Below, in pieces: positions 1-13,810 of a stretch of 64,000 nt of DNA. The translations under genes were made by a program, and so were the position numbers. The notes below the pieces were generated by a model that saw only the letters and a program-made list of their open reading frames with translations, had not been told where the DNA came from and made no database searches. The stretch lies in assembly GCF_041886205.1 (NCBI RefSeq), contig NZ_CP169029.1; one strand, written 5' to 3'. Position 1 is the stretch's first letter. Each line of letters starts with the position of its first letter. The stretch comes from Escherichia coli. GTDB taxonomy: Bacteria; Pseudomonadota; Gammaproteobacteria; Enterobacterales; Enterobacteriaceae.

Positions 1-651
1 GCTCAAGATATCGGTAAACTGCATTCATCGAGGAAAGTCTCGCCAGATTGGTATTCCAAGTTACCAATCCCTTGGAACAAAACTGTTACTTGGATCGATA
101 GTTCGAGCCCTAATGAAGCAGGTGCAGAAGAACATAAGGGTAATGGTCGTTACTATAATCAACGAGAAGTCCGGCTACTGCTAGAGGCTTTGCAGTCATT
201 GTCGAGTGATGGCTGCATTGCACAGCTTGAGCAAACTATTACCACAGAACAGCCATATCCTATTGGTATAATCACAATGTATCGTCAGCAAAAAGAGGAA
301 ATTGACAATGCTATCAGTCGGGCTGAATGGGCTGCATCGTTACGTGGTTTGATCAAGATCGATACCGTTGATTCATATCAGGGCCATGAAAACAAGATAA
401 TTATCCTCAGTCTGGTTCGCGATAATCCCAACAAACTACAAGGTTTCCTGCGCGACGCGCCGCGAATAAACGTTGCTATTTCGCGAGCTCAAGAAAGGTT
501 ATTGATTCTGGGAGCAAGGCGTATGTGGTCAAAGACCAATAATGATTCAGCACTTGGAAACGTTCATGAATTTATTAGTAAACAGGTTGCAGTAGATGAA
601 CCCAACTACCAAATCCTGTGTGGTCAAAGTCTGCTTGGAGATAACAACTAA
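1..651 (+). CDS. SF1 (Upf1/DNA2-like) helicase, C-terminal part only; 5' end lies upstream of the window
   Basis: Frame 1 is open from position 1 to the stop at 649-651. Translation carries helicase C-terminal motifs (DTVDSYQGHE, INVAISRAQERLLILG) resembling the C-terminal helicase core. Confidence 0.6.
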   Translation, partial: AQDIGKLHSSRKVSPDWYSKLPIPWNKTVTWIDSSSPNEAGAEEHKGNGRYYNQREVRLLLEALQSLSSDGCIAQLEQTITTEQPYPIGIITMYRQQKEEIDNAISRAEWAASLRGLIKIDTVDSYQGHENKIIILSLVRDNPNKLQGFLRDAPRINVAISRAQERLLILGARRMWSKTNNDSALGNVHEFISKQVAVDEPNYQILCGQSLLGDNN

Positions 652-2198
652 TGTCAGAACCACGTCTGGGTAATCTGATTACCGTTTTACTACCTGCGCG
701 TAGTTACAAGATCAACTGCGCTTTGACCACTGAAAAACTGATGCCTGGAATTGAACAGTTTGCATGTCGCTTGCTGCTGATTTTTGATCAACTCTATCCC
801 AGCGAGTTACAGAATTACTTTGGTCTAACTGATCGTGAGCGAGAGGTATTGCTTGATGGGTTGCTGGCTAACAGACTGATCAACATTAATCCTGATGGGC
901 ATATTGAGGCTAGCTCATTCCTACGTAAGCATGCAGCTAATAATGGTGGGAAGCCAAGTTTAGTTAAATATCAAGAATGTACGGAGGAAGTTGCATTCGA
1001 TCTACTAACTCTTTCGATATGTAAACCGCAACCAAATCGTCGTTTTACTTCTGGACTGCCAGAGCTATTGCCGCGGCATCAGATCGGGGGAGATGCTGCT
1101 GCGGTAACAGAGGCTTTTAGTTCCCAGTTTAGGCACCATCTTTTGCTCAGCCGCAACAGCGAGTATGAGCGTCAACGGACTAAATTATATAAGATAATGG
1201 GCTGTAGTTCGCATGAGATGGTGCAGCTCCCAATAGAGATAGAGGTTAGCTACGGTGTTTCTGCTGGGAGCATTGAGCCGCAGAAATTTACTCGTTCCTA
1301 TGAATATTTAGGTAACACCCGGCTGCCGCTTTCAAACGAGCTGGAAGCTCATATCGCAGATTTTTTGGGAGAACATAAACTAGATGAATTCGGTATCGAC
1401 TGTGAAGATTTCTGTAAACTAGCAAATGATAAAGTGTTGTTACAATTTGCTAATGGTTATAAGTTCAACTATTCCGGCTGGATAGAGGCTCGTGAACAAC
1501 GTAAAACTGGCTACGGTACTTCATTGACTACCGGCATGTTAGGGGCTGTTTATTTGCCGCACAATTCTAAGCTGTTCATTAGTATGTTGCATAATGCATT
1601 ACGTGATTATATAGGTAAAACAGCTCCAAAAGCGCTGTGGTATAGCAGTAAAGTACCACTGTGGGGAGCTAATGGTAGTCAACTTTCGCGTTTTACTCGC
1701 GCTCTAGGCGATATACTTGGCAATTATGCCGATGATAAGATTGCTCGCATTTCGCTTTTACACTCAAGTGCAGATGAAGGTGAAAAACGTCAAGAGCGTA
1801 AGCGGCACTTAGGTCGTTTTCCTACCGGTATTGGCCTTACTTCAGAGGCTAAATTTGATCGTTTGGAGATCCTCTTAATTCCTGATGTGATTGCTTTGGT
1901 GCAATACCACGGTCAACCTAATTCTGATAGTGCATTAACCCTGCCGATTGGTTATATAACTGTTGAGCCAGAGCGTTTAGAATTACTTAAAAAACTAATG
2001 ATTAAGCGAACTGAAGGGGCTGTTGCAACCATTACTTGGTCTGAATCAAAATTTGAAAATTTAGCTTCGCTATTACCTGTTGAGTTTCTGATTAAACTGA
2101 ATAAGAAAAGCGGTGAAGATGTGGATGCTGCAATAAAAAAAATGCAGATCTATAACCGTGCTGAAACCGCACGGGCAATTTTATCGCTACGCAAGTAG
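651..2198 (+). CDS. Hypothetical 515-aa protein, translationally coupled to the upstream helicase
   Basis: ATG at 651 overlaps the helicase stop (TAATG); GGAG 13 nt upstream. Long uninterrupted ORF with no catalytic motif I can recognise. Confidence 0.6.
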   Translation: MSEPRLGNLITVLLPARSYKINCALTTEKLMPGIEQFACRLLLIFDQLYPSELQNYFGLTDREREVLLDGLLANRLININPDGHIEASSFLRKHAANNGGKPSLVKYQECTEEVAFDLLTLSICKPQPNRRFTSGLPELLPRHQIGGDAAAVTEAFSSQFRHHLLLSRNSEYERQRTKLYKIMGCSSHEMVQLPIEIEVSYGVSAGSIEPQKFTRSYEYLGNTRLPLSNELEAHIADFLGEHKLDEFGIDCEDFCKLANDKVLLQFANGYKFNYSGWIEAREQRKTGYGTSLTTGMLGAVYLPHNSKLFISMLHNALRDYIGKTAPKALWYSSKVPLWGANGSQLSRFTRALGDILGNYADDKIARISLLHSSADEGEKRQERKRHLGRFPTGIGLTSEAKFDRLEILLIPDVIALVQYHGQPNSDSALTLPIGYITVEPERLELLKKLMIKRTEGAVATITWSESKFENLASLLPVEFLIKLNKKSGEDVDAAIKKMQIYNRAETARAILSLRK

Positions 2199-2412: not shown

Positions 2413-2739
2413 ATGACTAAAAATACACGTTTTTCCCCCGAAGTCCGTCAACGGGCAGTTCGTATGGTTCTGGAAAGTCAGGGCGAATATGACTCACAAT
2501 GGACAGCAATTTGTTCTATTGCCCCTAAGATTGGCTGTACACCGGAGACTCTGCACGTCTGGGTACTCCAGCATGAGCAGGATATTGGGGGCGGTGATGG
2601 TGGTTTCACCACCACTGAACGTCAGCGTCTGAAAGAGCTGGAACGTGAAAATCGTGAACTGAGCCGCAGTAACGATATCCTTCGCCAGGCTTCCACTTAT
2701 TTTGCGAAGGCGGAGTTCGACCGCCCCTGGAAAAAATAA
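2413..2739 (+). CDS. IS3-family transposase OrfA (IS629 OrfA-like, 108 aa)
   Basis: Translation MTKNTRFSPEVRQRAVRMVLESQGEYDSQW...LKELERENRELSRSNDILRQAS matches IS629/IS1203 OrfA as I recall it. Confidence 0.75.
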   Translation: MTKNTRFSPEVRQRAVRMVLESQGEYDSQWTAICSIAPKIGCTPETLHVWVLQHEQDIGGGDGGFTTTERQRLKELERENRELSRSNDILRQASTYFAKAEFDRPWKK

Positions 2740-3118
2740 TGCCACTGCTGGATAAGTCGCGTGAGCAGTACGGGATCGGACCGGTATGCAGTGAACTGCA
2801 TATTGCCCCGTCAACGTATTACCACTGTCAGCAACAGCGACATCATCCTGATAAACGCAATGCCCGTGCGCAGCGTGATGACTGGCTGAAGAAAAAGATA
2901 CCGTGCGTATACGATGTGCGTAAAGTCTGGCGTCAGTTGTTTCGGGAAGGTATCAGAGTGGCCAGATGCACTGTGGCACGTCTCATGGCGGTTATGGGGC
3001 TTGTCGGTGTTCTCTGGGGTAAAAGGTCCGCACTACCGTCAGCCGGAAAGCCGTTGCCGTAGACGACCGCGTAAACCGCCAGTTCGGGGCAAAGTCGTGG
3101 GTGGCTGATTTTACTTAC
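2739..3118 (+). pseudogene. IS3-family transposase OrfB, truncated and frameshifted
   Basis: Begins MPLLDKSREQYGIGPVCSELHIAPSTYYHCQQQRHHPDK like IS629 OrfB, but is short of a few residues versus the recalled sequence, stops after 107 aa, and continues in another frame (RQFGAKSWVADFTY) before homology ends. Confidence 0.6.
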
Positions 3119-3690
3119 GGTGTGCCCGGAGTTCAGGGTGAGCACGGATGCTGAAATGAACCATGAGTCTGTCTGGAATATGGAACAGATAACTCATGAC
3201 GAGAAGCCCAACAATCCCACCGGGTGTGACTGTGGTGAACCTGAGCGACTGTGACCTGCGGCATTCCCTAAGGATGATGTAACCCGCTGACAACGGGGAT
3301 TGAGGCGAGATCACTAAGCCGAGATGATCCTCAAGGTTGAGTGCTGAAAGGCTGAAGAACATGAACCCGTTAATCCGCCTCTGTGGGCTGAAAACGTCAC
3401 CACGGCCTACATGATCTGACAGGTCGTGCAGAAGTAACTGTCTGCGACACGTATGCGCGGGTCAGTCAAAGGTGTTCTGACATGTATGCAAAACACCGGG
3501 ACAGCAACGCCTATCACGCTCACGTTGCTGACTTCTGTCAACTTGCGGCAAGCAAGGACAAAGAGTGCGACGGGCAGCCTCCTCAGTATGTATGAGTTCA
3601 GACAGGTGAACTGGGGAAGGTCAGCGACGGATGTTAAGGAGGCAGTAAGCGTCAACGGAGCACCGTATTGACGCTTATTTATTGGTGAGA
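3119..3690 (+). mobile_element. Candidate group II intron 5' fragment (domain I-like structured RNA) inserted in the IS OrfB remnant; no intron-encoded protein ORF
   Basis: Starts GTGTGCCCGGAG...GGGTGAGCACGG immediately after the IS OrfB FTY codons, resembling the GUGYG...GGGUG start of bacterial group II introns. GC-rich, non-coding in all frames. Group II introns are known to target IS elements in E. coli. Confidence 0.25.
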
Positions 3691-3698
3691 ACTACGTT

Positions 3699-3900
3699 TC
3701 ATGGCAGGAGTTCGTCAACACGGTTGGATAGTAATGCACGGCTCAGTTCGACACCCTGTCGGGCAAAGATTTCACTCTGACGATACAGTGGCAGGTGTTC
3801 GCAGTATTTTCCCGTTAACACGCGGGCAAGTAATCCGGGGCCGCGATACCACGCTCTATCGGGCAGGACGGCGCCAATGATAGCATTTATACAAGCAATT
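3699..3900 (-). pseudogene. IS66-family transposase (TnpC) internal fragment
   Basis: Minus-strand translation ...GLLARVLTGKYCEHLPLYRQSEIFARQGVELSR... matches the conserved HLPLYRQSxIxARQGV block of IS66 TnpC, then hits a stop. Far too short for an intact gene. Confidence 0.45.
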
Positions 3901-4227
3901 CTGGGAGCTTATAGATTGTGTGCAAAACTTTTGATAGCAGGAGGTTACAACAGTATTGATGAAAAAGATCATTCAAATCGATTTATATATTTTGTTAATG
4001 TTATCTGTTTTCAATCTAATAACCACGAATATAGCTAATTATAGGATGATTACTAGTTTTGCTACCCTATCAACCAAACGTTCACCGGACATTAGAAAAC
4101 ATGGAAATTTCTTGTTTTTAAATGCTTTTTACACCAATAGAAAAATTTACATTCCAAAATCATTAGTCTTTGCGTAATCAAAAGATGTAATGGTTTTTTT
4201 CCTTACTACTTCTAGATAATCCGCCCA

Positions 4228-4345
4228 CTACAGCAACATCAACTTACGCTCATCTAAATGCTCCGCCTTATGGATATAAGCTACCCGCACTGAATTACAT
4301 TCCATGCGGCTCATCAGACGTCCAGTTGCTTTACTGTCTTCAGGG
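4228..4345 (-). pseudogene. P4-type integrase 3'-terminal fragment (remnant of an older island)
   Basis: Minus-strand translation ...ATGRLMSRMECNSVRVAYIHKAEHLDERKLMLL* aligns with the C-terminus of the intact integrase at 11064..12326 (...AVERQMSHQERNGVRAAYIHKAEHLEERRLMLQ...). No upstream catalytic region. Confidence 0.5.
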
Positions 4346-4584
4346 GGATGCTCTTGTAATCCCAACCTCTCGTGCTTTCTGAGCATAACACATCCATGTT
4401 GCTGCGATTATCTCTTAAACCCGTCCTTACCATTTTTATTGATACGATAAGGAACCTTCATCATACATGATCGATTTTGTCGATCGATTCGATCGAATTT
4501 TCTCTTTTTACCCTGTCTTTTACATGGTTTTAAAATAAGCACCCCATTTATTGTTCGGGGAAAGTGATAGCAGAGGTAACTGAA

Positions 4585-5313
4585 ATGAAAAAGATTATTG
4601 CGGTTTCAGCACTTGCTGTGGCAGGCATGTTTTCAGCCCAGACCCTGGCTGATGAGAGCAAAACAGGCTTTTATATGACCGGTAAGGCGGGAACTTCCGT
4701 TTTATCTCTTTCCAACCAGCGTTTTGTCGAAGGTGAAGGAGAGTGGGCGGACAGATACAAAGGTGACGATGACCATGATACGGTATTCAGTGGCGGTATT
4801 GCGGCCGGTTATGATTTTTATCCGCAGTTCAGTATTCCGGTTCGTACAGAACTGGAGTTTTACGCTCGTGGAAATGCTGACACGAAATATAATCTTTATA
4901 AAGACGACTGGTCGCGTGGTGACCTGAAGAACGAGGTGTCAGTCAACACTCTGATGCTGAATGCGTACTATGACTTCCGGAATGACAGCTCATTCACACC
5001 ATGGGTATCTGCAGGGATTGGCTACGCCAGAATTCACCAGAAAACAACCGGTATCAGTACCTGGGATTACGGGTATGGATACAGTGGTCGTGAATCGTTG
5101 TCACGTTCAGGCTCTGCTGACAACTTCGCATGGAGCCTTGGCGCGGGTGTCCGCTATGACGTCACCCCGGATATCGCTCTGGACCTCAGCTATCGCTATC
5201 TTGATGCGGGTGACAGCAGTGTGAGTTACAAGGGCGAGTGGGGCGATAAATATAAATCAGAGGTTGATGTTAAAAGTCATGACATCCTGCTTGGTGTGAC
5301 TTATAACTTCTGA
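4585..5313 (+). CDS. Outer-membrane beta-barrel protein (OmpA-like/opacity-type family), 242 aa
   Basis: Signal peptide MKKIIAVSALAVAGMFSAQTLA, alternating aromatic/hydrophilic beta-strand pattern, C-terminal ...LLGVTYNF ending in Phe. The ORF-track start at 4564 is probably an upstream extension. Confidence 0.7.
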   Translation: MKKIIAVSALAVAGMFSAQTLADESKTGFYMTGKAGTSVLSLSNQRFVEGEGEWADRYKGDDDHDTVFSGGIAAGYDFYPQFSIPVRTELEFYARGNADTKYNLYKDDWSRGDLKNEVSVNTLMLNAYYDFRNDSSFTPWVSAGIGYARIHQKTTGISTWDYGYGYSGRESLSRSGSADNFAWSLGAGVRYDVTPDIALDLSYRYLDAGDSSVSYKGEWGDKYKSEVDVKSHDILLGVTYNF

Positions 5314-5390
5314 CGACACTGCTTCTGAATGATAATTGCGCATATTTCTGCAATTAAGATAATTACGTATTTCTGTAATTAAAAAGGAAC

Positions 5391-5435
5391 ACCCTGCAGT
5401 AATATTATACTGCAGGGTTGTCTGTTATCTGCTTT
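5391..5435 (+). terminator. Putative rho-independent terminator after the outer-membrane protein gene
   Basis: Perfect 11-bp inverted repeat accctgcagta/tactgcagggt followed by a T-rich tract. Confidence 0.4.
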
Positions 5436-5488
5436 ACAGGATATTTCTGATTTTTATTATCTTATTCTCTTTATATTAAGATATTTCG

Positions 5489-6988
5489 ATGAGTATCATA
5501 AAACTATTTTTTCCGGACAATACATCCCGAATTTTATTGTTTTTATTCTTTTTTGTTGTTTCTGTCATAACCACAATTGCATGCGGATACACTGAGAAGA
5601 ATACCACCGGGAATGTGTTGCTGCTGTTCTTTCTTCTGCTTCTTGCACACAGAAATACCCTCACATCCATTACAGCGCTGTTATTTCTGTTCTGTTGTGC
5701 ACTGTATGCGCCTGCCGGTATGACGTACGGTAAAATCAACAACAGTTTTATTGTCGCGTTGTTGCAGACCACGGCTGATGAGGCAGCGGAGTTTACCGGG
5801 ATGATTCCTGTTTATCATTTTCTGGTCAGTGCCGCGATTCTGGTATTCATGGTGATTTTCTGGCGAACACACCACCGCGGTCACCGTAACTGGCTGGCAC
5901 TGCTGCTATTCGTATTATGCTCTGTAAACAGCTGGCCGTTGCGGATGGTTAAAGGAACCGTTGTGGGGACAACTGACACATTGCGTGAAATGCAGCGTTA
6001 TAAACAACTGAGTCAGCACGGGGCTGACAGCTGGAAAATCCTGCCGGGTGTACCGTTGTATGACACGATTGTTATTGTTACTGGTGAGAGTGTGCGCAGG
6101 GATTATATGTCGGTATATGGCTATCCCGTGCCAACCACACCGTGGCTGAATACTGCTCCCGGTTTATTTATTGACGGCTATACATCGGCAGCAGCCAGTA
6201 CCGTACCTTCCCTGAGCCGGACACTGATTTATGACTATGAGCAGAACCCTGATTCCGGCAACAACGTGGTGGCGCTGGCAGCAAAATCAGGATACAGCAC
6301 ATGGTGGATATCCAATCAGGGAAAACTGGGAGAGCATGACACACGCATCTCTGTTATTGCTTCTGATGCGGAGCATACCGTTTTCCTCAAGAAAGGCAGC
6401 TTCGCTTCCCGTAAAACGGATGATATGTTGTTGTTACAGGAAACAGAACGTGCGCTGGCGGATACATCCTCTCCGAAGGTGATTTTCCTGCACATGATTG
6501 GCTCTCATCCGAATCCGTGTGACCGACTTAACTCCTGGCCGAATCATTACCTGGAGCAGTATCCCCGAAAGATTGCCTGTTACCTCGCCAGCATCAGTAA
6601 ACTGGATAACTTTCTCGGTCAGCTTGATGGTATCCTTCGCCGGCATTCCCGTCATTTCGCCATGCTTTACTTTTCTGACCATGGACTGTCGGTCAGCGAC
6701 AGCGCTAATCCTGTTCATCATGATGGTCATGTGCAGGGAGGCTACAGCGTTCCCCTGATTATTACCGCCAGTGACATCACGTCTCATCAGTCCGTCAGCA
6801 GAAAAATCAGTGCCCGTCATTTCGCAGGTATTTTTCAGTGGCTGACCGGCATTCGTACTGAAAATATACCGCCATTCAATCCGCTGACAGACGAAGATAA
6901 TGAACCCGTTATGGTTTTTAACGGGGAGAGGAATGTACCGGCAGACAGTCTGAAACCGCAGCCTCTGATTCTTCCGGACAGAAGATAA
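5489..6988 (+). CDS. Sulfatase-family phosphoethanolamine transferase-like inner-membrane protein (EptA/YhbX-like), 499 aa
   Basis: N-terminal multi-span hydrophobic region followed by a soluble domain with sulfatase-like signatures (IVTGESVRRDY, HMIGSHPNPCDRL). Exact start codon uncertain. Confidence 0.65.
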   Translation: MSIIKLFFPDNTSRILLFLFFFVVSVITTIACGYTEKNTTGNVLLLFFLLLLAHRNTLTSITALLFLFCCALYAPAGMTYGKINNSFIVALLQTTADEAAEFTGMIPVYHFLVSAAILVFMVIFWRTHHRGHRNWLALLLFVLCSVNSWPLRMVKGTVVGTTDTLREMQRYKQLSQHGADSWKILPGVPLYDTIVIVTGESVRRDYMSVYGYPVPTTPWLNTAPGLFIDGYTSAAASTVPSLSRTLIYDYEQNPDSGNNVVALAAKSGYSTWWISNQGKLGEHDTRISVIASDAEHTVFLKKGSFASRKTDDMLLLQETERALADTSSPKVIFLHMIGSHPNPCDRLNSWPNHYLEQYPRKIACYLASISKLDNFLGQLDGILRRHSRHFAMLYFSDHGLSVSDSANPVHHDGHVQGGYSVPLIITASDITSHQSVSRKISARHFAGIFQWLTGIRTENIPPFNPLTDEDNEPVMVFNGERNVPADSLKPQPLILPDRR

Positions 6989-7096
6989 TCATGTCGGTAT
7001 GAATGTTATAATTAAGGACCGTGCAATAATAGCCATTCCATTCAGCCATCTTACGCTCGAAAACAATCGATAAGATGGCTACTCACCATTCCTGCT

Positions 7097-10000
7097 CTAA
7101 ACCTGACGCCTCTCAAGACTATTATAAATAGCCTCAATCTCACCCTTCAGGTTATCACCGCAATAAACCATTGAGGTATCGTATCGTTCATATCGCGCTT
7201 CCCGTGTCGCACTAAACCAGTTGAACGATCCCACGCACAGCAAACCATCATCACCAATAACAATTTTGCTATGAACACGGTTTACCAGCTTTGTAGCAAT
7301 ACCCAGCGCATTCAGTTTCTCCAGCGCCGCTTTAAAGTTTTGCTGCTTCTCTTTTCGCTTCTCAAAATCATTATGTTCAGTGTTGTAGCTTCTGTCAGTG
7401 ACTATCGTGACGTTAATTCCACGTGAACACGCCGCAATCATGGAATCAAGAAAACCTGTTTGCTCCAGCCTTTGCCAGGTCAGCCATGGAGAAACTATCG
7501 TGATGTGTTTACTGGTATTTTCAAATGTCTGATTCAGGAAATTATCATGTTGCTCCACACCATGAAGTGTGTAGATTTTGGTCCCGGAGGTTTTTAAATC
7601 CTTACGCTCTTTATAATCAAAAGAGAGCGCATTCTTCTCTGACTCAAAGAGGTATTTTGCCAGTAATCCCCGTGGAGATGAGGCTGGCTGGACCTCAAAC
7701 AGGTCCATATCGCCGAAGACCAGAAAACTGTCCTTCGCACGGGAGACTGCAACATTCAGCATGCTGTTATCGCTATCAATAAACCCGCCGTCTTCATGTT
7801 TTGAATAGACTGGCGAGAATATCACAATCGCTCTTTCCGCTCCCTGAAGAGAGTGCACGGTGCCCACTGTGAGCGACTTTTCATTCGAGCCTGTACTGAT
7901 ACCTTGTTTGCCCAGCGCCTGTTTGATAGTGGATACCTGAGCGCTAAAAGGCGTCACGATACCGACAACTTCATGAAGCGATTTACCGTAATGCGCTTCA
8001 ATATTTTGTTGGTTCTCTGCCAACCAGACCGCTATCGTTTCAGCCTCAAGCAAATTATATCGACTTCCACTACTTGCCAGCTCTCCTTTACCATCAATAT
8101 GGAGATACCCCATTGCGGGCATTAAATTGCTCTCTTCACGCCCTCTTTTAGGCAACAACTTACCGTGATAGCAGAGCGTATTACAGTATCCAATAATATT
8201 GTCGTAGCACCGGCGGTGTTCATATAGGGACATACCACGAGCCAGTTCGGGATCATATTGATAGCGCGAAGCAAACTGCGCTATTTTCATAACGCTGCCA
8301 GATGCGGCACTTTTACCAAGGTCTGCGATTGCCGTATATTTCTCGGTAATCTCTTCTTGCGTACTGCCAGACAGAATTTTTTCCGCCAGCATGTTACCGA
8401 CATCAATCGCAGGAGCAATACTCCATATTGGCGGGAGCTGCTCCGTATCGCCAATCACTAATGCCTTCTTAGCTAATGCAAACGAGGCAGCAGCCACTTC
8501 AGGAAGCACCTGCCCGGCTTCATCGACAATGAGTAAATCGGCAAAATCATACAAATAACTTTTCTCGAATTTACGCTGTCCTTTGTGCTCACTTATCTGC
8601 ATATTGCCGGGCAGCATATAGCATGTCATCACCACACATGGAGTGAGTTTCATTCGACGTTGCCAACGGGCAGTTACCCCTTTAGCGCCTTTTTTCTTCT
8701 TCTCTTCCTGCAGATCATCAATGCTGGCCATATCCATCAGCCAACGACCTTCCCAGTAGTGAGTCGTCAGTAAAAATGCAGGGAAGCGAATCTGCGTATC
8801 AGCCAGTTCATCGGCCTGTGAGAAGCTCAGTTCCTCGTCGCCCTCATACCCTAAATTAAGAGCCAGTCTCTGCCACTCCTGAACCGCCTGCTGTTCTTTA
8901 AGAATGATTTCATGGGCGGAATCAATCTGCTGCCGGTATGTTGTTTGCTCGCGCTCAGCGGAATTGAGCAGCCCATCAATATTACGTTCGATAGTTTCAG
9001 GATCAGACCACTGATTTCCTGCAATCAGCGCACCTAATTTATCTTCGAGAAACAGCTGTATTTGGTACTGTCGCTTACTGCGAACCACCGGGAGCCAGGA
9101 AAATAATGAATAGATCAGTGATTCACCGGCGCGATATTTTTTCCATTCCGTTTTAGCACTTTTCAGTAGAGTGATTTTTTGTTCTTGTCCGGAAAGTAAT
9201 TTATTTAAATTATCGAGATATTGCTCAATGTCGTTAGCAATAAGCTCACGCGCAGCCCGTACCTGGCTTAACGTTTGCCATGTTGCGTTCAGTCTTATCA
9301 GTTGCTCGGATTTTGCTGCCAACTGACCATGCAGGAGTTCAATGACCTTTTCAGGGGATGAACAATCTTTTTCAGGAAAGGCTGCCTTAGCCTTCTCCAG
9401 ATAAAACAGCAGTGCATCCTCTACATACTCTTTTGACTCAACCTGGTTGAAGAAATCTTCAGTTTGATATTTTTTGGCTGCCTCAGCTTTACGAGTGCTT
9501 GAGGGAAAATAAGCGCCGAAGCTTTTCAGCTCAGGTAACCATCGTCCGGCCATTGCACCAGTGCCCTGTGAAAAATCTTTCCCGAACGCTTCGATAATGT
9601 TCGTTACAGCCTGGTTGTTCGTTGAAGTCGCGATAATTACCGGAGGCTCAGATTTTTCGAGAGCCGCTCTGGCCCACTGCGTGGCGATGATAGAAAGCAC
9701 CAGCGTGGTTTTTCCGGTTCCCGGAGGTCCATTAACAGCAAGGATATCGCCATGTCTTGCATCCAGAAAATGGCTTAAGGCATCGCGCTGAGCCTTTGCC
9801 AGCGGAAACTTATCTCCGGAGTGTCCAAGCCTGTCGCTGAATTTTGCGCCTGGGGCCAGCAAAGACTCTGCAGCATGAACCTCTCGCGAGGCGAAGCGAT
9901 TGAAGAGCGGCACAACCTTCTTGCAAACAAGCAGGTGATCATAAAGAGAAAGGATATGGAAACAGGCACCGCCAGATTGCGCCGTTTTAACAATATAACC

Positions 10001-10612
10001 GTGCTCAGCGAGTTCATATTGCTCAGGATTTTTAATCCAGTCGCCGGCAACGTTCTTCAGCAGCCTCTCTGAATCATCCAGATATTGACGCCACTCCTGC
10101 TGCAAGGCTGCATATCGTGCTTCCCGTTCTTCATCCGTTTCGGCAGTCTTATCAATGCCGTCATCAAAGTTGATAGAGAACGAGGTATGGATTGTCTTGT
10201 ATTTGTCATACTGCCCAATCTCACCAATCGAAAATGCTCCTTTTGGCAAAGGTTCAAGCAGGTCTCTGGGAATGGAGGTCGCTGGCGTCGGATATAAAAA
10301 ACCCTCACGGCTTAGCAAGGCTGGCGTCACTATCGGGGTAACAATATCAGGCGCGCCTGCGGAACGGTCCTTACCATGCTGCAGTAACCGGAAATAAACT
10401 TTTGGGCGCAAGATGACATCGACCGTTTCGACATCGTCTTTTTCTCCCTTAAAAAATTTACTGACAATCGCTTCGTCAAGACGTCCCGCCGCTATCCCAT
10501 GCCAGTGAGTGAAATTTTTGGCGTCTTTCCGTTCAAAACTGCCCTTTCCTGACTCAGCATCCGCAAGCGAGTTGCGCCAGTATGAGGTAAACCCTAAAGC
10601 ATTTTCATCCAT
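7097..10612 (-). CDS. SF1 helicase (Upf1/DNA2-like) fused to a C-terminal PLD-family (HKD) nuclease domain, 1171 aa; candidate single-gene antiphage defense protein
   Basis: Walker [15 protein letters not shown]; Walker B/motif [11 protein letters not shown]; [11 protein letters not shown]; C-terminal helicase motifs [14 protein letters not shown] and [16 protein letters not shown]; C-terminal [19 protein letters not shown] is an exact HxK(x)4D(x)6GSxN phospholipase-D motif. ATG at 10612..10610 with AGGA upstream. Confidence 0.75.
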
Positions 10613-10665
10613 TACCAGTCCTGTGACTCAATGAAATCCATTGATTTATCGAATATAAAACCACC

Positions 10666-10688
10666 ATATGGACAACTATTGTCCATAT
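10666..10688. promoter_or_regulatory. Perfect 10-bp inverted repeat (atatggacaa-cta-ttgtccatat) 54-76 bp upstream of the helicase-PLD start; candidate operator
   Basis: Palindrome read directly from the sequence, located in the upstream region of the minus-strand gene starting at 10612. Confidence 0.3.
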
Positions 10689-11009
10689 TGAAAAAATTGG
10701 ATGCAATGTTTTGTTTATAATTCGATATCAAATGTACTGGTTGTACAAGGTTCAGAACACAAGCACATTCAACAGTACGTCAGGACTATTGATTTCATAA
10801 CAGTGAATACATTTTTTACCGTTTATAATGACTGCCTGTGTTGGACAAGGATACCAGAACAGCCGAAAACACCGGGGGTTATTACCTGCTCTCATGGAAA
10901 CCAGATATTCCTGGTGCTAATCACAGTCATAAATAGCCTGAAGAACATGACGAAGGGACTTTAATGGACGCCGGAGTAACTTGCCAGAACATCAATCTTC
11001 GTCATCATT

Positions 11010-11060
11010 TACAAAGAAAAATAATCAGTTAAAGCAGTCCGGGCTGATTGCCCGGACTGC
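11010..11060 (-). terminator. Putative rho-independent terminator downstream of the integrase
   Basis: Perfect inverted repeat gcagtccggg/cccggactgc immediately after the integrase stop, followed on the minus strand by a T-rich tract. Confidence 0.45.
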
Positions 11061-11063
11061 TTA

Positions 11064-12326
11064 CTATTTTAATGGATTGTTAATTTTTGCATATTCAAAC
11101 GGACTGATACCCTTCTCCCGGTTCGCATCCAGAAAATCGGCCCACCATTGCAACATCAGTCGCCGTTCTTCCAGATGTTCTGCTTTATGGATATACGCAG
11201 CACGTACACCATTACGCTCCTGATGGCTCATCTGACGTTCCACAGCATCGCGGGACCACAAACCTGATTCAATCAATGCACTGCACGCCATCGCCCGGAA
11301 TCCATGGCCACAGACATCCTGGGTTGTGTCATACCCCATCACCCTCAGGGCTTTATTTACAGTATTTTCACTGATTGGTTTACGCGGGTCATGTGCTCCC
11401 GTAAAGATCAGACCATTTTCACCAGCCCATGTCTGTAGTTCTGCCAGTATGGCTACAGCCTGTTTGCTGAGTGGCACAAGATGTGGTGTTCGCATCTTGG
11501 AGCCCCGGTGTGAGAATTTTACGCCAGGCAGAGGTTCGCGTTCGGCTGGAATAGTCCACATGGCATTGTCAATATCAATTTCAGACCAGCGGGCGTATCT
11601 GAGTTCACTGGAACGAATAAAAACCAGTAAATTCAGCATAACTGCCAGTCGGGTGACAGGCTGGCCTTTATAACCGTCAATACGCGACAGAAGTTCAGGC
11701 AGGCGTGAAAGATCCAGTGCAGGGCGATGCTGGCGTTTTACCGTGGTCAATGCACCAGCCATATCCAGAGCCGGGTTATATCTGATGATGCCAGACTGTA
11801 CGGCATAACGCATTACAGCAGATATTCTTTGCTGCAGACGACTGGCGATTTCATAAATTTGTTTAGCTTCTGCAGCACGAACAGGGATAAGCAGGTCCGG
11901 GGTACTGAGTGTTGTGATATCCCGGTTGCCGATAAAGGGGAAAACGTGTGTCTCGAGGCTTTTGAGTACTTTATCGCTGTGTGATTGTGCCCATTGTTTA
12001 TTACTGGCATGCCAGCGTCGTGCAATATGTTCAAAAGAGAGTTGTAAATCAGGGACTACTTTTTTAGCTCTTTTCAGTTCGCAAGGGTCAATCCCCTCCG
12101 AAATCAGTTTTCGGGCCTCATCCCGTTTTGTACGAGCTTCGGAGAGAGAAACTTCTGGATACACACCAAGTGCCAGAGTCTTCTCCTTACCCAGAATACG
12201 ATAACGGAGACGCCAGTAACGGGAACCATTAGGATGAACCAGTAGGAACATGCCAGCCCCGTCAGTGAGTTTATAAGCCTTGTCAGTGGGCTTTGCAGCC
12301 CGGATTTTTGCGTCAGTCAGTGCCAT
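11064..12326 (-). CDS. P4-type phage integrase (tyrosine recombinase), island integrase next to tRNA-Phe
   Basis: Translation from the internal Met: MALTDAKIRAAKPTDKAYKLTDGAGMFLLVHPNGSRYWRLRYR... (typical P4-family N-terminus); C-terminal catalytic region with HGFRAMA...YIHKAEHLEERR. The ORF-track start at 12389 is an upstream extension. Confidence 0.85.
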   Translation of the reverse strand: MALTDAKIRAAKPTDKAYKLTDGAGMFLLVHPNGSRYWRLRYRILGKEKTLALGVYPEVSLSEARTKRDEARKLISEGIDPCELKRAKKVVPDLQLSFEHIARRWHASNKQWAQSHSDKVLKSLETHVFPFIGNRDITTLSTPDLLIPVRAAEAKQIYEIASRLQQRISAVMRYAVQSGIIRYNPALDMAGALTTVKRQHRPALDLSRLPELLSRIDGYKGQPVTRLAVMLNLLVFIRSSELRYARWSEIDIDNAMWTIPAEREPLPGVKFSHRGSKMRTPHLVPLSKQAVAILAELQTWAGENGLIFTGAHDPRKPISENTVNKALRVMGYDTTQDVCGHGFRAMACSALIESGLWSRDAVERQMSHQERNGVRAAYIHKAEHLEERRLMLQWWADFLDANREKGISPFEYAKINNPLK

Positions 12327-12486
12327 AGTATAGCCTTCTGAATGCGTTAAAGAGGGTACAAATTCTGTCGAACTGGGGTATGCCCGCAATTATACCCACA
12401 CAATGGGGTTGATGTGGGGGGAATCTGGTTGAGTTCGGTAGAATTGATTTGTAGGTAGAACGCTTAAATTGTGGCGTTCTGAAACG

Positions 12487-12523: not shown

Positions 12524-12599
12524 TGGTGCCCGGACTCGGAATCGAACCAAGGACACGGGGATTTTCAATCCCCTGCTCTACCGACTGAGCTATCCGGGC
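12524..12599 (-). tRNA. pheV: tRNA-Phe (pheV locus by synteny with yqgA-speC)
   Basis: Reverse complement reads GCCCGGATAGCTCAGTCGGTAGAGCAGGGGATTGAAAATCCCCGTGTCCTTGGTTCGATTCCGAGTCCGGGCACCA, the E. coli tRNA-Phe sequence including CCA. Confidence 0.95.
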
Positions 12600-12704: not shown

Positions 12705-13412
12705 TCAGGCAAACCAGGCGGTCCAGGCGGCGGAAATCGGCATTGCCAGAAGGAGTGCTGGAAGCATGTTGACCACCGGGAACATTTTAATGCCACAGAT
12801 GCGTAATCCGGTTGCCAGCAGCAATAAACCGCCTACGGCGCTGAAGTCTGCCATCATCGACGGTGTGGTCAGCGGTAATATCAGCGCGGCAGCCCACGCC
12901 AGCGTTAACTGGATGATCAGTAATGGTATACTAATTACCGACACCGCGATGCCCAACGAGCAGGCGAAGATCATTGCCGTAAAGAAATCAAGAAATGACT
13001 TGGCGATTAAAATACTCGGATCGCCGGTCATCCCTTCGTTCATCGCCCCGAAGATCCCGGTGCCGCTGGCGCAAAACAGGACAATAATCGCGACATAATT
13101 CTGAATAAAAGATTCATGCGCTGGCTTCTTACGTGAGTGACGAAACAGATTTTGTGCTTTGGTGACCGCGGTATTGACGCCTTTTTCCAGCAGACAAAAT
13201 TCGCCGATTAATGCTCCAAGTAAGGTTGCTAAAACCATCGCCGGAAGGTTGGCGCATTTCACCACCAGTAAAATACCAATCCCCAGCGATGCCAGACCAA
13301 AAATTGATGTCATGGAGACGCGGATACGTTCCGGTAAGCGTTGGCTAAGTAGTGCACCGAGCACGCCACCCAGTAATACTGCACTTGCGTTGATAAAAGG
13401 ACCGATGACCAC
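12705..13412 (-). CDS. yqgA: Inner membrane protein YqgA (DUF554)
   Basis: Translation [30 protein letters not shown]... matches YqgA. GTG start chosen to give 235 aa; the ORF-track ATG at 13433 is an alternative. Confidence 0.8.
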
Positions 13413-13810
13413 AAAAGTTCCCGTTAGCTGCATTGTCTGATTTTCTTATTATGACCGTTTGGTGCCGTCGATGGCTTGTTTGTTCGCAAAGTCCTGGCTT
13501 GCACGCTCTGATGAAAGGTGCCATGATTGCGCGAATTTTCTCCTCTCTGTACGGAGTTTGCCCGATGCATGCCACCTCCTTACATTCTCTCGCTTATCGC
13601 CGTTTCGCGCGAAACTCTTCTCTTTTTATGCTACTGCTCATGCGGTGAAGTTAACGCACGCTCACTGCAGGACAACAGTAAAATCAGAGCGTTTCTGCTT
13701 TTACTGATGTCTGGCGGTCGGAGCTGGTGACCAGTTTGACCCATATCTCATGGGGCAGGGTTTTCCACCTTGTCCGGTATTCTTACTTCCCCGAAACGGG
13801 TTTTGCGCTT

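What the first reader, a model, noticed from the sequence alone, without database searches (positions are those of the whole stretch)
4585..6988. Island cargo pair: outer-membrane beta-barrel protein and a phosphoethanolamine-transferase-like membrane enzyme
These two same-strand genes sit between the integrase remnant and the helicase-PLD gene. The second has the membrane-anchor plus sulfatase-domain layout of EptA-type lipid A or core modifying enzymes. Horizontally acquired envelope-modifying genes can alter surface charge, with possible effects on cationic peptide or polymyxin susceptibility and on phage adsorption. An acquired transferase of this family is worth flagging.
Basis: partly seen in the sequence, partly recalled or inferred. 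Interest (0 to 1): 0.35.

Follow-up and report, generated by a model that had tools for sequence, protein, structure and literature searches.

The report
Island adhesin plus OpgE-like transferase pair
The two genes are real and intact: a variable outer-membrane adhesin of the known E. coli Hra/Hek/Tia family, followed by an uncharacterised membrane enzyme whose closest studied relative is OpgE, which decorates periplasmic glucans, not the lipid A enzymes behind polymyxin resistance; the pair is a common, already catalogued passenger of E. coli genomic islands.

Summary
Window 4585-5313 (+) encodes a 242-aa, 8-stranded outer-membrane barrel of the Hra/Hek/Hes/Tia adhesin family. Window 5489-6988 (+) encodes a 499-aa protein with a five-helix membrane anchor and a sulfatase-fold domain. 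It carries every catalytic residue of phosphoethanolamine (PEtN) transferases.

Both genes lie on a pheV (tRNA-Phe) island of E. coli, between a 57-codon integrase remnant and a helicase-PLD gene. That gene is MkoC, a type II Mokosh anti-phage gene.

The interpretation needs refining. The enzyme is not EptA- or MCR-like: it scores 45 bits to EptA and at most 35 bits to MCR models with cut-offs of 1075 or more. Its closest K-12 paralogue is OpgE (30% identity over the full length, 234 bits). It is the intact form of the K-12 pseudogene yjgX.

A full-length copy is present in 1450 of 5426 complete E. coli genomes, and the pair in 1326, at pheV, pheU, leuX and selC. The pair is listed in the LAA island ("sulfatase" + hes) and appears in a GWAS as "putative opgE".

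The transferase is under purifying selection (dN/dS about 0.1). The adhesin varies at its loop tips through allele exchange. The acceptor of the transferase is unknown, and nothing supports a polymyxin link. This is known cargo of modest interest.

The parts
4159..4329 (-). Integrase remnant (C-terminal 57 codons, internal stop). It marks the distal edge of the conserved integrase-proximal module.
   Evidence: tblastn of the island integrase against 3600-4600 gives 60% identity to residues 382-438 with one stop. It is annotated as a partial integrase at the same place in strains YJ4, N44 and ZYB39.
4585..5313 (+). Hra-family (Hra1/Hek/Hes/Tia-type) outer-membrane adhesin gene, 242 aa. It has a signal peptide (about aa 1-22), an 8-stranded beta-barrel and a C-terminal ...TYNF.
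   Evidence: Pfam OMP_b-brl E 1.3e-24. AlphaFold gives pLDDT 88.5 and 8 long strands. Foldseek hits are OmpA-TM, NspA, Ail and OmpX. It is 64% identical to the cluster NCBI names Tia, and a member of its own 90% cluster is named Hek. Differences between alleles lie at aa 44-63, 97-112, 166 and 217, the loop tips.
5391..5418 (+). Perfect 11-bp-stem hairpin between the two genes, with a weak T tract. It is terminator-like.
   Evidence: Terminator scan. The stem is retained with a different loop in the divergent YJ4 allele. Function not shown.
5433..5460 (+). Sigma-70-like promoter candidate (TTTACA, 16 nt, TATTAT; 10 of 12) upstream of the transferase gene.
   Evidence: Consensus scan only. The number of such sites in the region equals the shuffle expectation, so this is weak evidence.
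5489..6988 (+). OpgE-like (YjgX-type) phosphoethanolamine transferase gene, 499 aa. It has five N-terminal hydrophobic helices (aa about 11-154) and a periplasmic sulfatase-fold domain (aa about 190-470). Predicted catalytic residues are E200, T238, H340, D397, H398 and H411.
   Evidence: Pfam Sulfatase E 1.4e-35. blastp to OpgE gives 30% identity, 234 bits. The catalytic columns are invariant in a 37-sequence family alignment. Hydropathy. AlphaFold pLDDT 89.3. Foldseek hits EcEptC 6a82, full-length MCR-1 9nww and NmEptA 5fgn. dN/dS is 0.08-0.13. It is 92% identical in DNA to the K-12 yjgX remnant.
7097..10612 (-). MkoC, the type II Mokosh helicase + PLD anti-phage gene. It is a context gene, not part of the pair's function.
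   Evidence: PADLOC MkoC E 0, 1684 bits, full length. Pfam AAA_11, AAA_12 and PLDc_2. The slot is occupied by sisA in LAA or is empty in other strains.
11064..12389 (-). Intact P4-type tyrosine integrase of the island. RefSeq annotations start it about 21 codons downstream of the first possible start.
   Evidence: Pfam Arm-DNA-bind_3, Phage_int_M and Phage_integrase. Annotated in homologous loci.
12524..12599 (-). tRNA-Phe (pheV), the island's integration site.
   Evidence: ARAGORN. The flanking yqgA and speC define pheV.

Best explanation
These are two independent envelope genes that travel together as a cassette at the integrase-proximal end of P4-integrase tRNA islands in E. coli.

Gene 1 is an Hra-family adhesin. 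It is exported by Sec, inserted by BAM as an 8-stranded barrel, and displays four long surface hairpins. By analogy with Hra1, Hek, Hes and Tia, these mediate haemagglutination, autoaggregation and adhesion. The hairpin tips are diversified by allele exchange.

Gene 2 is an inner-membrane PEtN transferase of the OpgE clade, the intact form of K-12 yjgX. Its inferred mechanism is as follows.
- Thr238, held at a Zn site formed by E200, D397 and H398, attacks the phosphate of phosphatidylethanolamine at the periplasmic face.
- Diacylglycerol is released.
- The PEtN-enzyme intermediate passes PEtN to a hydroxyl of a periplasmic or envelope glycan.

The most likely acceptor is an osmoregulated periplasmic glucan or another envelope saccharide. 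Lipid A phosphates are unlikely.

Shown: gene integrity, fold, conserved catalytic residues, clade, purifying selection, island location and distribution. Inferred: enzymatic activity, donor, acceptor class, and adhesin function of this particular allele.
For: Identity and fold:
- Pfam and NCBIfam assignments.
- AlphaFold models with pLDDT 89 and 88.5.
- Foldseek hits to EcEptC, MCR-1 and NmEptA for the enzyme, and to OmpA, NspA and Ail for the OMP.

Catalytic set: E200, T238, H340, D397 and H398 are invariant, and H411 is conserved in at least 90% of 37 homologues down to 25% identity. They align with the Glu, Thr, His and Asp-His motifs of EptA, EptB and EptC.

Clade: the protein scores 234 bits to OpgE over its full length, including the membrane domain, against 106 bits to YhbX, 93 to EptC, 55 to EptB and 45 to EptA. 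OpgE's function is published in PMC3818809.

Constraint: transferase dN/dS is 0.08-0.13.

Separate transcription units are suggested by the hairpin and promoter-like site.

Cassette behaviour:
- The pair is present in 1326 of 5426 genomes, at pheV, pheU and leuX.
- The pair is retained in a Salmonella island at 54-58% identity.
- The gene next to the integrase varies: MkoC, sisA or none.

Hra family functions are described in PMC5539235.
Against: - No biochemical data exist for any member of this clade other than OpgE, and 30% identity does not fix the acceptor.
- E. coli already has a core opgE, so a second glucan enzyme would seem redundant.
- More distant homologues in Erwinia, Pantoea, Enterobacter lignolyticus, Aquitalea and IncI1 plasmids have no OMP neighbour. 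OMP homologues in Providencia and Yersinia have no transferase neighbour. The pairing may therefore be historical rather than functional.
- Copies are often decayed: K-12, ATCC 8739, ZYB39 and Salmonella. This argues that selection is weak in many hosts.
- The promoter and terminator calls are consensus matches only.
Confidence: 0.6

Rival explanations
1. One reading: the enzyme adds PEtN to lipid A or the inner core (Kdo or heptose phosphate), as EptA, EptB, EptC or MCR do. This would lower surface negative charge and raise tolerance to polymyxin and cationic peptides.
For: The protein has the same overall architecture and catalytic residues as these enzymes. The best NCBIfam hit by name is CptA (105 bits), and the best solved structure is the E. 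coli EptC periplasmic domain (E 3e-17). Some database entries label relatives 'lipid A phosphoethanolamine transferase'.
Against: - All lipid A and core models fall far below their curated cut-offs: CptA 105 against 404, EptA 55 against 561, EptB 47 against 493, and MCR families at most 35 against 1075 or more.
- Similarity to EptA, EptB and EptC is confined to the catalytic domain, whereas OpgE aligns over the whole length with 2.5 to 5 times the score.
- Full-length copies occur in about 27% of complete E. coli genomes, whereas polymyxin resistance in E. coli is rare. The rarity is general knowledge, not tested here.
- A K-12 yjgX deletion was a false positive in a defensin screen (PMC4808223). 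That allele is a pseudogene, so this is weak evidence.
Confidence: 0.12
2. The enzyme modifies a protein rather than a glycan, as Neisseria PptA does with pilin or Campylobacter EptC with FlgG. The target could be the adjacent Hra adhesin or another surface protein, making the pair a functional unit.
For: The pair is adjacent in 91% of E. coli genomes that carry a full-length transferase (1326 of 1450). It is kept together in a Salmonella island although both proteins have diverged to about 55%.
Against: - Cloned hra1, hes, tia and hek alone confer their phenotypes in K-12/HB101-type hosts, which lack a functional yjgX (PMC5539235).
- The pairing is absent outside Escherichia and Salmonella, seen from either gene's side.
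- OMP alleles are swapped independently of the transferase.
- A terminator-like hairpin separates the two genes.
Confidence: 0.05
3. The pair is functionally inert baggage: remnants of an old island that persist only through linkage to the integrase and to selected cargo.
For: Decay is frequent. Examples are K-12 yjgX truncation, the ATCC 8739 frameshift with IS1 in the OMP gene, IS100 in the ZYB39 OMP gene, and Salmonella sulfatase fragments. No phenotype has been published for the transferase.
Against: - In this window both ORFs are intact.
- Transferase dN/dS is 0.08-0.13 and OMP dN/dS is 0.19-0.25, so both are clearly constrained.
- Catalytic residues are invariant.
- OMP changes concentrate at surface loop tips, as expected for an expressed surface protein.
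- Hes was detected in outer-membrane extracts (PMC5539235).
- 'Putative opgE' unitigs associate with a urinary portal of entry, though probably through linkage to pap (PMC8946752).
Confidence: 0.13

Closest known systems
OpgE (YbiP) of E. coli K-12, the PEtN transferase for osmoregulated periplasmic glucans (PMC3818809)
   Same: It is the closest characterised homologue: 30% identity across membrane and catalytic domains (aa 20-492 against 22-527), 234 bits. It has the same size class, the same catalytic motifs, and the same predicted donor chemistry.
   Different: It is a paralogue, not an orthologue. opgE is a core gene at the ompX-opgE-mntS locus, whereas this gene is island-borne at tRNA sites. 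At 30% identity the acceptor may differ. No activity data exist for this clade.
yjgX of E. coli K-12 (pseudogene in the KpLE2 element at leuX)
   Same: Same gene lineage: 92% DNA identity over nt 317-1490, in the same position next to a P4-type integrase at a tRNA gene.
   Different: The K-12 copy lacks its N-terminus and is frameshifted with an internal stop. Here the gene is intact and the OMP partner is present.
Hra family adhesins: Hra1 (EAEC 042), Hek (NMEC RS218, PAI II of 536), Hes (LAA of LEE-negative STEC), Tia (ETEC), Hra2
   Same: Same family and fold. It is 64% identical to the Tia-named cluster and 81-87% identical to the alleles of strains N44 and YJ4. A member of its own cluster is named Hek. 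The genomic arrangement matches hes in LAA module I: int, one variable gene, 'sulfatase' (1503 bp), hes.
   Different: It is a distinct allele at the 90% clustering level (254 members). Its loop 1 and loop 2 tips differ from the compared alleles. The phenotype of this allele is untested.
EptA / MCR lipid A PEtN transferases, and EptB and EptC (CptA) core PEtN transferases
   Same: Same superfamily, with a five-helix anchor plus a sulfatase-fold domain. Foldseek aligns the whole model to full-length MCR-1 (9nww) and NmEptA (5fgn). The Thr nucleophile and Zn ligands are conserved.
   Different: Sequence similarity is weak and confined to the catalytic domain (45-93 bits). All curated family thresholds are missed by a wide margin. 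The membrane domain is shorter (about 155 aa).
Plasmid paralogues: the IncI1 511-aa protein (P0063) and the small ColE-type plasmid protein annotated 'Dca'
   Same: Same clade: 53% and 29% identity. Both are carried on mobile elements, as here.
   Different: Their genomic context differs and neither has an OMP partner. Neither is characterised, to my knowledge.

Membership tests
Phosphoethanolamine transferase superfamily (alkaline-phosphatase/sulfatase fold with N-terminal membrane anchor) | Periplasmic sulfatase-fold catalytic domain | tested here: met
   Pfam Sulfatase E 1.4e-35, aa 193-446. Foldseek gives EcEptC 6a82 E 1.7e-18 and MCR-1 catalytic domains at E about 1e-12.
Phosphoethanolamine transferase superfamily (alkaline-phosphatase/sulfatase fold with N-terminal membrane anchor) | N-terminal multi-helix inner-membrane domain | tested here: met
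   Five hydrophobic segments within aa 11-154. The AlphaFold model has helices at 12-31, 39-53, 57-80, 108-127 and 135-145. Full-length Foldseek alignments of about 540 columns to 9nww and 5fgn.
Phosphoethanolamine transferase superfamily (alkaline-phosphatase/sulfatase fold with N-terminal membrane anchor) | Thr nucleophile plus Glu/Asp/His metal ligands | tested here: met
   E200, T238, H340, D397 and H398 are invariant, and H411 is conserved in at least 90% of 37 homologues. They align to the GE(S/T), T, GSH and DHG motifs of EptA, EptB, EptC and MCR-1.
Phosphoethanolamine transferase superfamily (alkaline-phosphatase/sulfatase fold with N-terminal membrane anchor) | Transfer of PEtN from phosphatidylethanolamine to an acceptor | not testable with these tools
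   Requires biochemistry or mass spectrometry.
Lipid A PEtN transferases (EptA / MCR) | Score above the curated family thresholds | tested here: not met
   NCBIfam EptA scores 55.0 against 561 and 37.8 against 660. The generic lipid A model scores 68.5 against 500. MCR-3, -4, -5, -7, -8, -9, -10, -12 and -13 score 15.7-35.4 against 1075-1250. blastp to K-12 EptA gives 45 bits. Pfam EptA_B_N scores 22.0 against 22.3.
Lipid A PEtN transferases (EptA / MCR) | PEtN on lipid A 1/4'-phosphate and raised polymyxin MIC | not testable with these tools
   Needs lipid A MS and MIC testing.
OpgE (glucan PEtN transferase) | Full-length homology to E. coli OpgE exceeding that to the other paralogues | tested here: met
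   234 bits and 30% identity over aa 20-492, against YhbX 106, EptC 93, EptB 55 and EptA 45 bits. The reciprocal pattern holds for four other family members.
OpgE (glucan PEtN transferase) | Orthology: the core ompX-opgE locus | tested here: not met
   K-12 opgE sits at 851014-852597 between ompX and mntS. This gene is on a tRNA-Phe island and is accessory. It is therefore a paralogue.
OpgE (glucan PEtN transferase) | PEtN substitution of osmoregulated periplasmic glucans | not testable with these tools
   Needs OPG extraction and MS, or the arbutin assay of PMC3818809.
YjgX lineage (island-borne PEtN transferase next to P4-type integrases) | Near-identical DNA to K-12 yjgX and the same island position | tested here: met
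   92.3% identity over nt 317-1490 to the K-12-type remnant beside intB and leuX. Same position at pheV and pheU in YJ4, N44 and ZYB39.
Hra family of outer-membrane adhesins (Hra1, Hek, Hes, Tia, Hra2) | Signal peptide, 8-stranded barrel of about 240-250 aa with four long surface loops, C-terminal aromatic residue | tested here: met
   AlphaFold model with 8 strands and pLDDT 88.5. Foldseek hits OmpA-TM, NspA and Ail. The sequence ends ...TYNF and the N-terminus is MKKIIAVSALAVAGMFSAQTLA.
Hra family of outer-membrane adhesins (Hra1, Hek, Hes, Tia, Hra2) | Sequence identity in the family range (published members share 65-90%) | tested here: met
   64% to the NCBI-named Tia cluster P0174 and 81-87% to the alleles of N44 and YJ4. 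Cluster-mate P0005 is named 'adhesin/virulence factor Hek'. The family identity range comes from PMC5539235. Direct comparison with the reference accessions was not possible.
Hra family of outer-membrane adhesins (Hra1, Hek, Hes, Tia, Hra2) | Haemagglutination, autoaggregation or adhesion phenotype | not testable with these tools
   Needs expression assays like those used for hes and hra1.

The most novel reading that the evidence does not exclude
The island-borne OpgE-like enzyme has an acceptor different from that of core OpgE, for example the LPS outer core, O-antigen, ECA or capsule. Together with the loop-variable Hra adhesin it would form a 'surface-remodelling cassette'. Such a cassette would alter phage adsorption, conjugative-pilus recognition or host recognition. 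That would explain why mobile elements of several kinds (tRNA islands beside Mokosh and other defence genes, IncI1 plasmids, small ColE-type plasmids) each carry a member of this uncharacterised clade.
Probability: 0.15. Interest if true: 0.5.

Novelty: already known. Interest (0 to 1): 0.18.

Why it matters
The finding carries little new information as it stands. Both proteins are already in public databases with identical sequences. The adhesin family is well studied. The gene pair is listed in published islands: LAA module I, PAI II of strain 536, and STEC pheU/pheV/selC islands.

The useful outcome is a correction. This widespread "phosphoethanolamine transferase" should not be read as a latent mcr- or eptA-like polymyxin determinant, because it belongs to the OpgE clade.

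One real gap remains. No one has determined the acceptor of this clade, although a full-length copy sits in about a quarter of complete E. coli genomes, on IncI1 plasmids, and in a GWAS signal for urinary-source bacteraemia. A simple expression and mass-spectrometry experiment would settle it.

Tried and rejected
1. **Lpt-O (Opt).** I recalled the 506-aa plasmid-borne O-antigen PEtN transferase Lpt-O of Shigella flexneri pSFxv_2 as a possible close relative. I fetched it (L019 1523-3043) and found no significant similarity (best E 8.5). Rejected. The small-plasmid relative I first labelled 'Opt-like' is a different protein, annotated Dca in one record.
2. **ATCC 8739.** I hoped to use this strain as an example of an intact copy in a reference strain, to argue about polymyxin susceptibility. 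Its copy is frameshifted and its OMP gene is cut by IS1. The argument was dropped.
3. **Second tRNA-Phe 3'-end repeat.** I searched the window for a second copy, which would delimit a mini-island ending after the OMP gene. None was found with up to 3 mismatches.
4. **Deep conservation of the pairing.** It holds in a Salmonella island. It does not hold in Erwinia, Enterobacter lignolyticus, Pantoea, Aquitalea or IncI1 plasmids. It also fails for OMP homologues in Providencia and Yersinia.
5. **PADLOC.** Neither gene matches any defence-system model.
6. **BcsG** (cellulose PEtN transferase): no similarity.
7. **Literature on the IncI1 paralogue.** The search returned only mcr papers.
8. **PmrA box.** An eye scan of the intergenic region gave nothing convincing. 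This was not a formal test.
Full report
**Where the window comes from.** The window is E. coli chromosome. tRNA-Phe lies at 12524-12599 (-). It is followed by yqgA (12705-13433) and speC (13727-15946). This core stretch is 95-100% identical to 5417 of 5426 complete E. coli genomes, and the arrangement is that of pheV. To the left of the tRNA lies a genomic island containing:
- an intact P4-type integrase at 11064-12389 (-), with Arm-DNA-bind_3, Phage_int_M and Phage_integrase domains;
- a 1171-aa helicase-PLD protein at 7097-10612 (-);
- the two genes of the finding on the + strand;
- a 57-codon integrase C-terminal remnant at 4159-4329 (-), 60% identical to integrase residues 382-438 and carrying a stop;
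- IS3- and IS66-type debris;
- two further genes that run off the window start.

**Observation.** Both ORFs exist as described.
- The OMP ORF is best started at ATG 4585, which has AGAGG 8 nt upstream and gives 242 aa, the length of the database proteins. It matches Pfam OMP_b-brl at E 1.3e-24.
- The 499-aa ORF at 5489-6988 matches Pfam Sulfatase at E 1.4e-35, and EptA_B_N at 22.0 bits, just under the 22.3 cut-off.
- Both exact proteins are in public E. coli assemblies, on 73 and 61 contigs.

**The outer-membrane protein.**
- AlphaFold, run with a 34-sequence alignment (A3), gives a confident model with pLDDT 88.5: a disordered signal peptide followed by eight long antiparallel strands.
- Foldseek finds the small 8-stranded barrels OmpA-TM, NspA, Ail and OmpX.
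- By sequence the closest solved chains are neisserial Opa proteins.
- The homologue search shows a dense cloud of E. coli alleles from 94% down to about 55% identity. It includes the cluster NCBI names 'invasion outer membrane protein Tia' at 64%. A member of the query's own 90% cluster is named 'adhesin/virulence factor Hek'.

The Hra family (Hra1, Hra2, Tia, Hek, Hes) is described as integral OMPs. They share 65-90% identity, differ mainly in surface loops, and mediate haemagglutination, autoaggregation, adhesion or invasion (PMC5539235). The gene here is a further allele of that family.

Comparison with the alleles of strains YJ4 and N44 places the amino-acid differences at residues 44-63, 97-112, 166 and 217. 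In the model these are the tips of the four extracellular hairpins.

Synonymous divergence of the OMP gene (dS 0.30-0.39) is several-fold higher than that of the adjacent transferase (0.02-0.11). Between the window and N44, the integrase, MkoC and transferase are 99.4-99.8% identical in protein while the OMP is only 81% identical. The OMP allele is therefore exchanged by recombination inside an otherwise conserved module.

**The 499-aa protein: architecture.**
- Hydropathy analysis finds five hydrophobic segments within residues 11-154.
- AlphaFold, run with a 37-sequence alignment (A1), gives pLDDT 89.3 and pTM 0.83. The model has an N-terminal helical bundle and an alpha/beta domain.
- Foldseek's best hits are the E. 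coli EptC periplasmic domain (6a82, E 1.7e-18) and the full-length structures of MCR-1 (9nww) and N. meningitidis EptA (5fgn), aligned over about 540 columns.
- In the family alignment E200, T238, H340, D397 and H398 are invariant and H411 is at least 90% conserved. These align with the metal-ligand Glu, the nucleophilic Thr, the GSH His and the DHG Asp-His of EptA, EptB, EptC and MCR-1.

The 'membrane anchor plus sulfatase domain' layout is confirmed and the catalytic machinery is intact. Pairwise dN/dS of 0.08-0.13 shows purifying selection.

**The 499-aa protein: which transferase.** I fetched the K-12 paralogues from MG1655 and compared them by blastp.

| K-12 paralogue | Score (bits) | Extent of similarity |
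|---|---|---|
| OpgE | 234 | 30% identity over aa 20-492, membrane domain included |
| YhbX | 106 | not assessed in detail |
| EptC | 93 | catalytic domain only |
| EptB | 55 | catalytic domain only |
| EptA | 45 | catalytic domain only |
| BcsG | none | no similarity |

The same ranking holds for four other family members.

NCBIfam models for CptA, EptA, EptB and nine MCR families all score far below their cut-offs:
- CptA: 105 against 404;
- EptA: 55 against 561;
- MCR families: at most 35 against 1075 or more.

OpgE is the enzyme that puts PEtN on osmoregulated periplasmic glucans (PMC3818809).

The gene is also the intact counterpart of a K-12 pseudogene. K-12-type strains carry a 5'-truncated, frameshifted copy, 92% identical in DNA, next to the integrase at leuX in the KpLE2 element, between IS2 and IS4 (insG) and near nanX/nanY. 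From my own knowledge of the K-12 map, this is yjgX. A paper on STEC islands uses the same name for the island transferases (PMC6174562).

**Distribution and context.**
- 2914 of 5426 complete E. coli genomes have some match to the transferase gene.
- 1450 genomes have at least 80% of its length.
- 1326 genomes have the OMP-transferase pair.
- 608 genomes have the whole 8.25-kb module from the integrase remnant to the integrase.

The module occurs at pheV (YJ4, this window), at pheU (N44, ZYB39, ATCC 8739) and at leuX (K-12). The literature adds selC (PMC6174562). Strain ZYB39 carries a 100% identical copy of the 8.25-kb module at pheU, with IS100 inserted in the OMP gene.

The gene between the integrase and the transferase varies:
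- MkoC here;
- sisA in the LAA island, where ORF4 'sulfatase' (1503 bp) and ORF5 hes are listed with function 'unknown' (PMC5539235 supplement);
- nothing at all in strains such as 06-00048.

Beyond the integrase remnant the cargo differs from strain to strain: Dpt restriction, type I R-M, or Mokosh type I here.

A GWAS of bloodstream isolates reported 'putative opgE' genes beside integrases on the pap island. They were associated with a urinary portal of entry (PMC8946752). By description these are this gene family.

The locus is therefore accessory, mobile and previously noticed, though never characterised.

**Is the pairing functional?** Evidence for a link:
- 91% of genomes with a full-length transferase keep the OMP next to it.
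- A Salmonella island keeps the same order although both proteins have diverged to about 55% identity.

Evidence against a link:
- Homologues of the transferase at 36-53% identity (IncI1 plasmids, Erwinia, Enterobacter lignolyticus, Pantoea, Aquitalea) have no such neighbour.
- OMP homologues in Providencia (core metJ-rpmE locus) and Yersinia have no transferase.
- In other Salmonella islands the transferase is in fragments.
- An 11-bp-stem hairpin (5391-5418) and a promoter-like site (5433-5460) separate the two genes. The stem is kept with a different loop in a divergent allele.
- Cloned Hra-family genes work alone in K-12-type hosts that lack a functional yjgX (PMC5539235).

I conclude that the pair is a long-lived linkage group rather than an obligate two-component system.

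**Mechanism (inferred).** The OMP is a Sec- and BAM-dependent surface adhesin with variable loop tips. The transferase most likely acts in these steps:
1. Thr238 at a Zn site attacks phosphatidylethanolamine at the periplasmic face.
2. A PEtN-enzyme intermediate forms and diacylglycerol is released.
3. PEtN is passed to a saccharide hydroxyl.

Given the clade, the acceptor is more likely a periplasmic glucan or another envelope glycan than a lipid A phosphate. The acceptor cannot be read from sequence. The presence of a core opgE in the same species suggests the island enzyme may have a different target.

**Neighbour identity.** PADLOC identifies the helicase-PLD protein as MkoC, type II Mokosh (E 0, 1684 bits, full length). 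It identifies the two genes at the window start as MkoA (C-terminal end) and MkoB, type I Mokosh. Neither gene of the finding matches any defence model.

**Verdict.** The specific EptA/mcr and polymyxin framing is unsupported. Both genes and their pairing are already catalogued, so novelty is 'already known'. Interest is low. The one open question is the acceptor of this widespread OpgE-like clade, which could be settled experimentally.

Noticed in passing
window 7097-10612 (-), 1-651 (+) and 651-2198 (+): Two Mokosh anti-phage systems lie on the same island. One is a full-length type II MkoC (PADLOC E 0). The other is a type I pair: MkoA (C-terminal end, running off the window start) and MkoB (E 1e-61). 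They flank the adhesin-transferase pair on either side.
   Followed up: partly
window 4150-12400; L004 (strain ZYB39): The whole 8.25-kb module is 100% identical to that of a bovine strain. There it sits at pheU instead of pheV, and an IS100 is inserted in the OMP gene. The same island therefore uses both tRNA-Phe genes.
   Followed up: partly
window 4585-5313 against L002 9822-10568 (strain N44): The OMP allele is replaced within an otherwise near-identical module. Integrase, MkoC and transferase are 99.4-99.8% identical in protein, but the OMP is 81% identical and its dS is several-fold higher. Some database alleles look like loop mosaics; for example P0155 shares loop 2 with this allele but not loop 1.
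   Followed up: partly
window 5333-5384: An imperfect tandem direct repeat of about 26 nt (TAATTGCGCATATTTCTGCAATTAAGA / TAATTACGTATTTCTGTAATTAAAA) lies between the OMP stop codon and the hairpin at 5391-5418. Its purpose is unknown.
   Followed up: no
L011 4451-6598 (E. coli K-12 MG1655 850450-852597): The core paralogue opgE also lies next to a small 8-stranded barrel gene, ompX, but convergent to it rather than on the same strand. This may be coincidence or an old two-gene block.
   Followed up: no
L005 8001-9536 (IncI1-type plasmid contig); L007 3169-4335 (6.7-kb ColE-type plasmid): Members of the same uncharacterised transferase clade ride on conjugative IncI1 plasmids and on small ColE-type plasmids. 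The IncI1 copy is 53% identical and lies near exclusion, hok/gef-type toxin (Pfam HOK_GEF) and nuclease genes. The small-plasmid copy is 29% identical and is annotated 'Dca' in one record.
   Followed up: partly
L003 (K-12), L020 (ATCC 8739), L004 (ZYB39), L022 (Salmonella): The cassette is often decayed. yjgX is truncated and frameshifted in K-12. ATCC 8739 has a frameshift plus an IS1-cut OMP gene. ZYB39 has IS100 in the OMP gene. In Salmonella the transferase is split into fragments.
   Followed up: partly
window 2413-3117 and about 3713-3873: IS3-family transposase remnants (HTH_Tnp_1 and HTH_21 fragments) and an IS66-family fragment lie between Mokosh type I and the integrase remnant. The GC content of 2500-3500 (about 53%) stands out from the rest of the island.
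   Followed up: no
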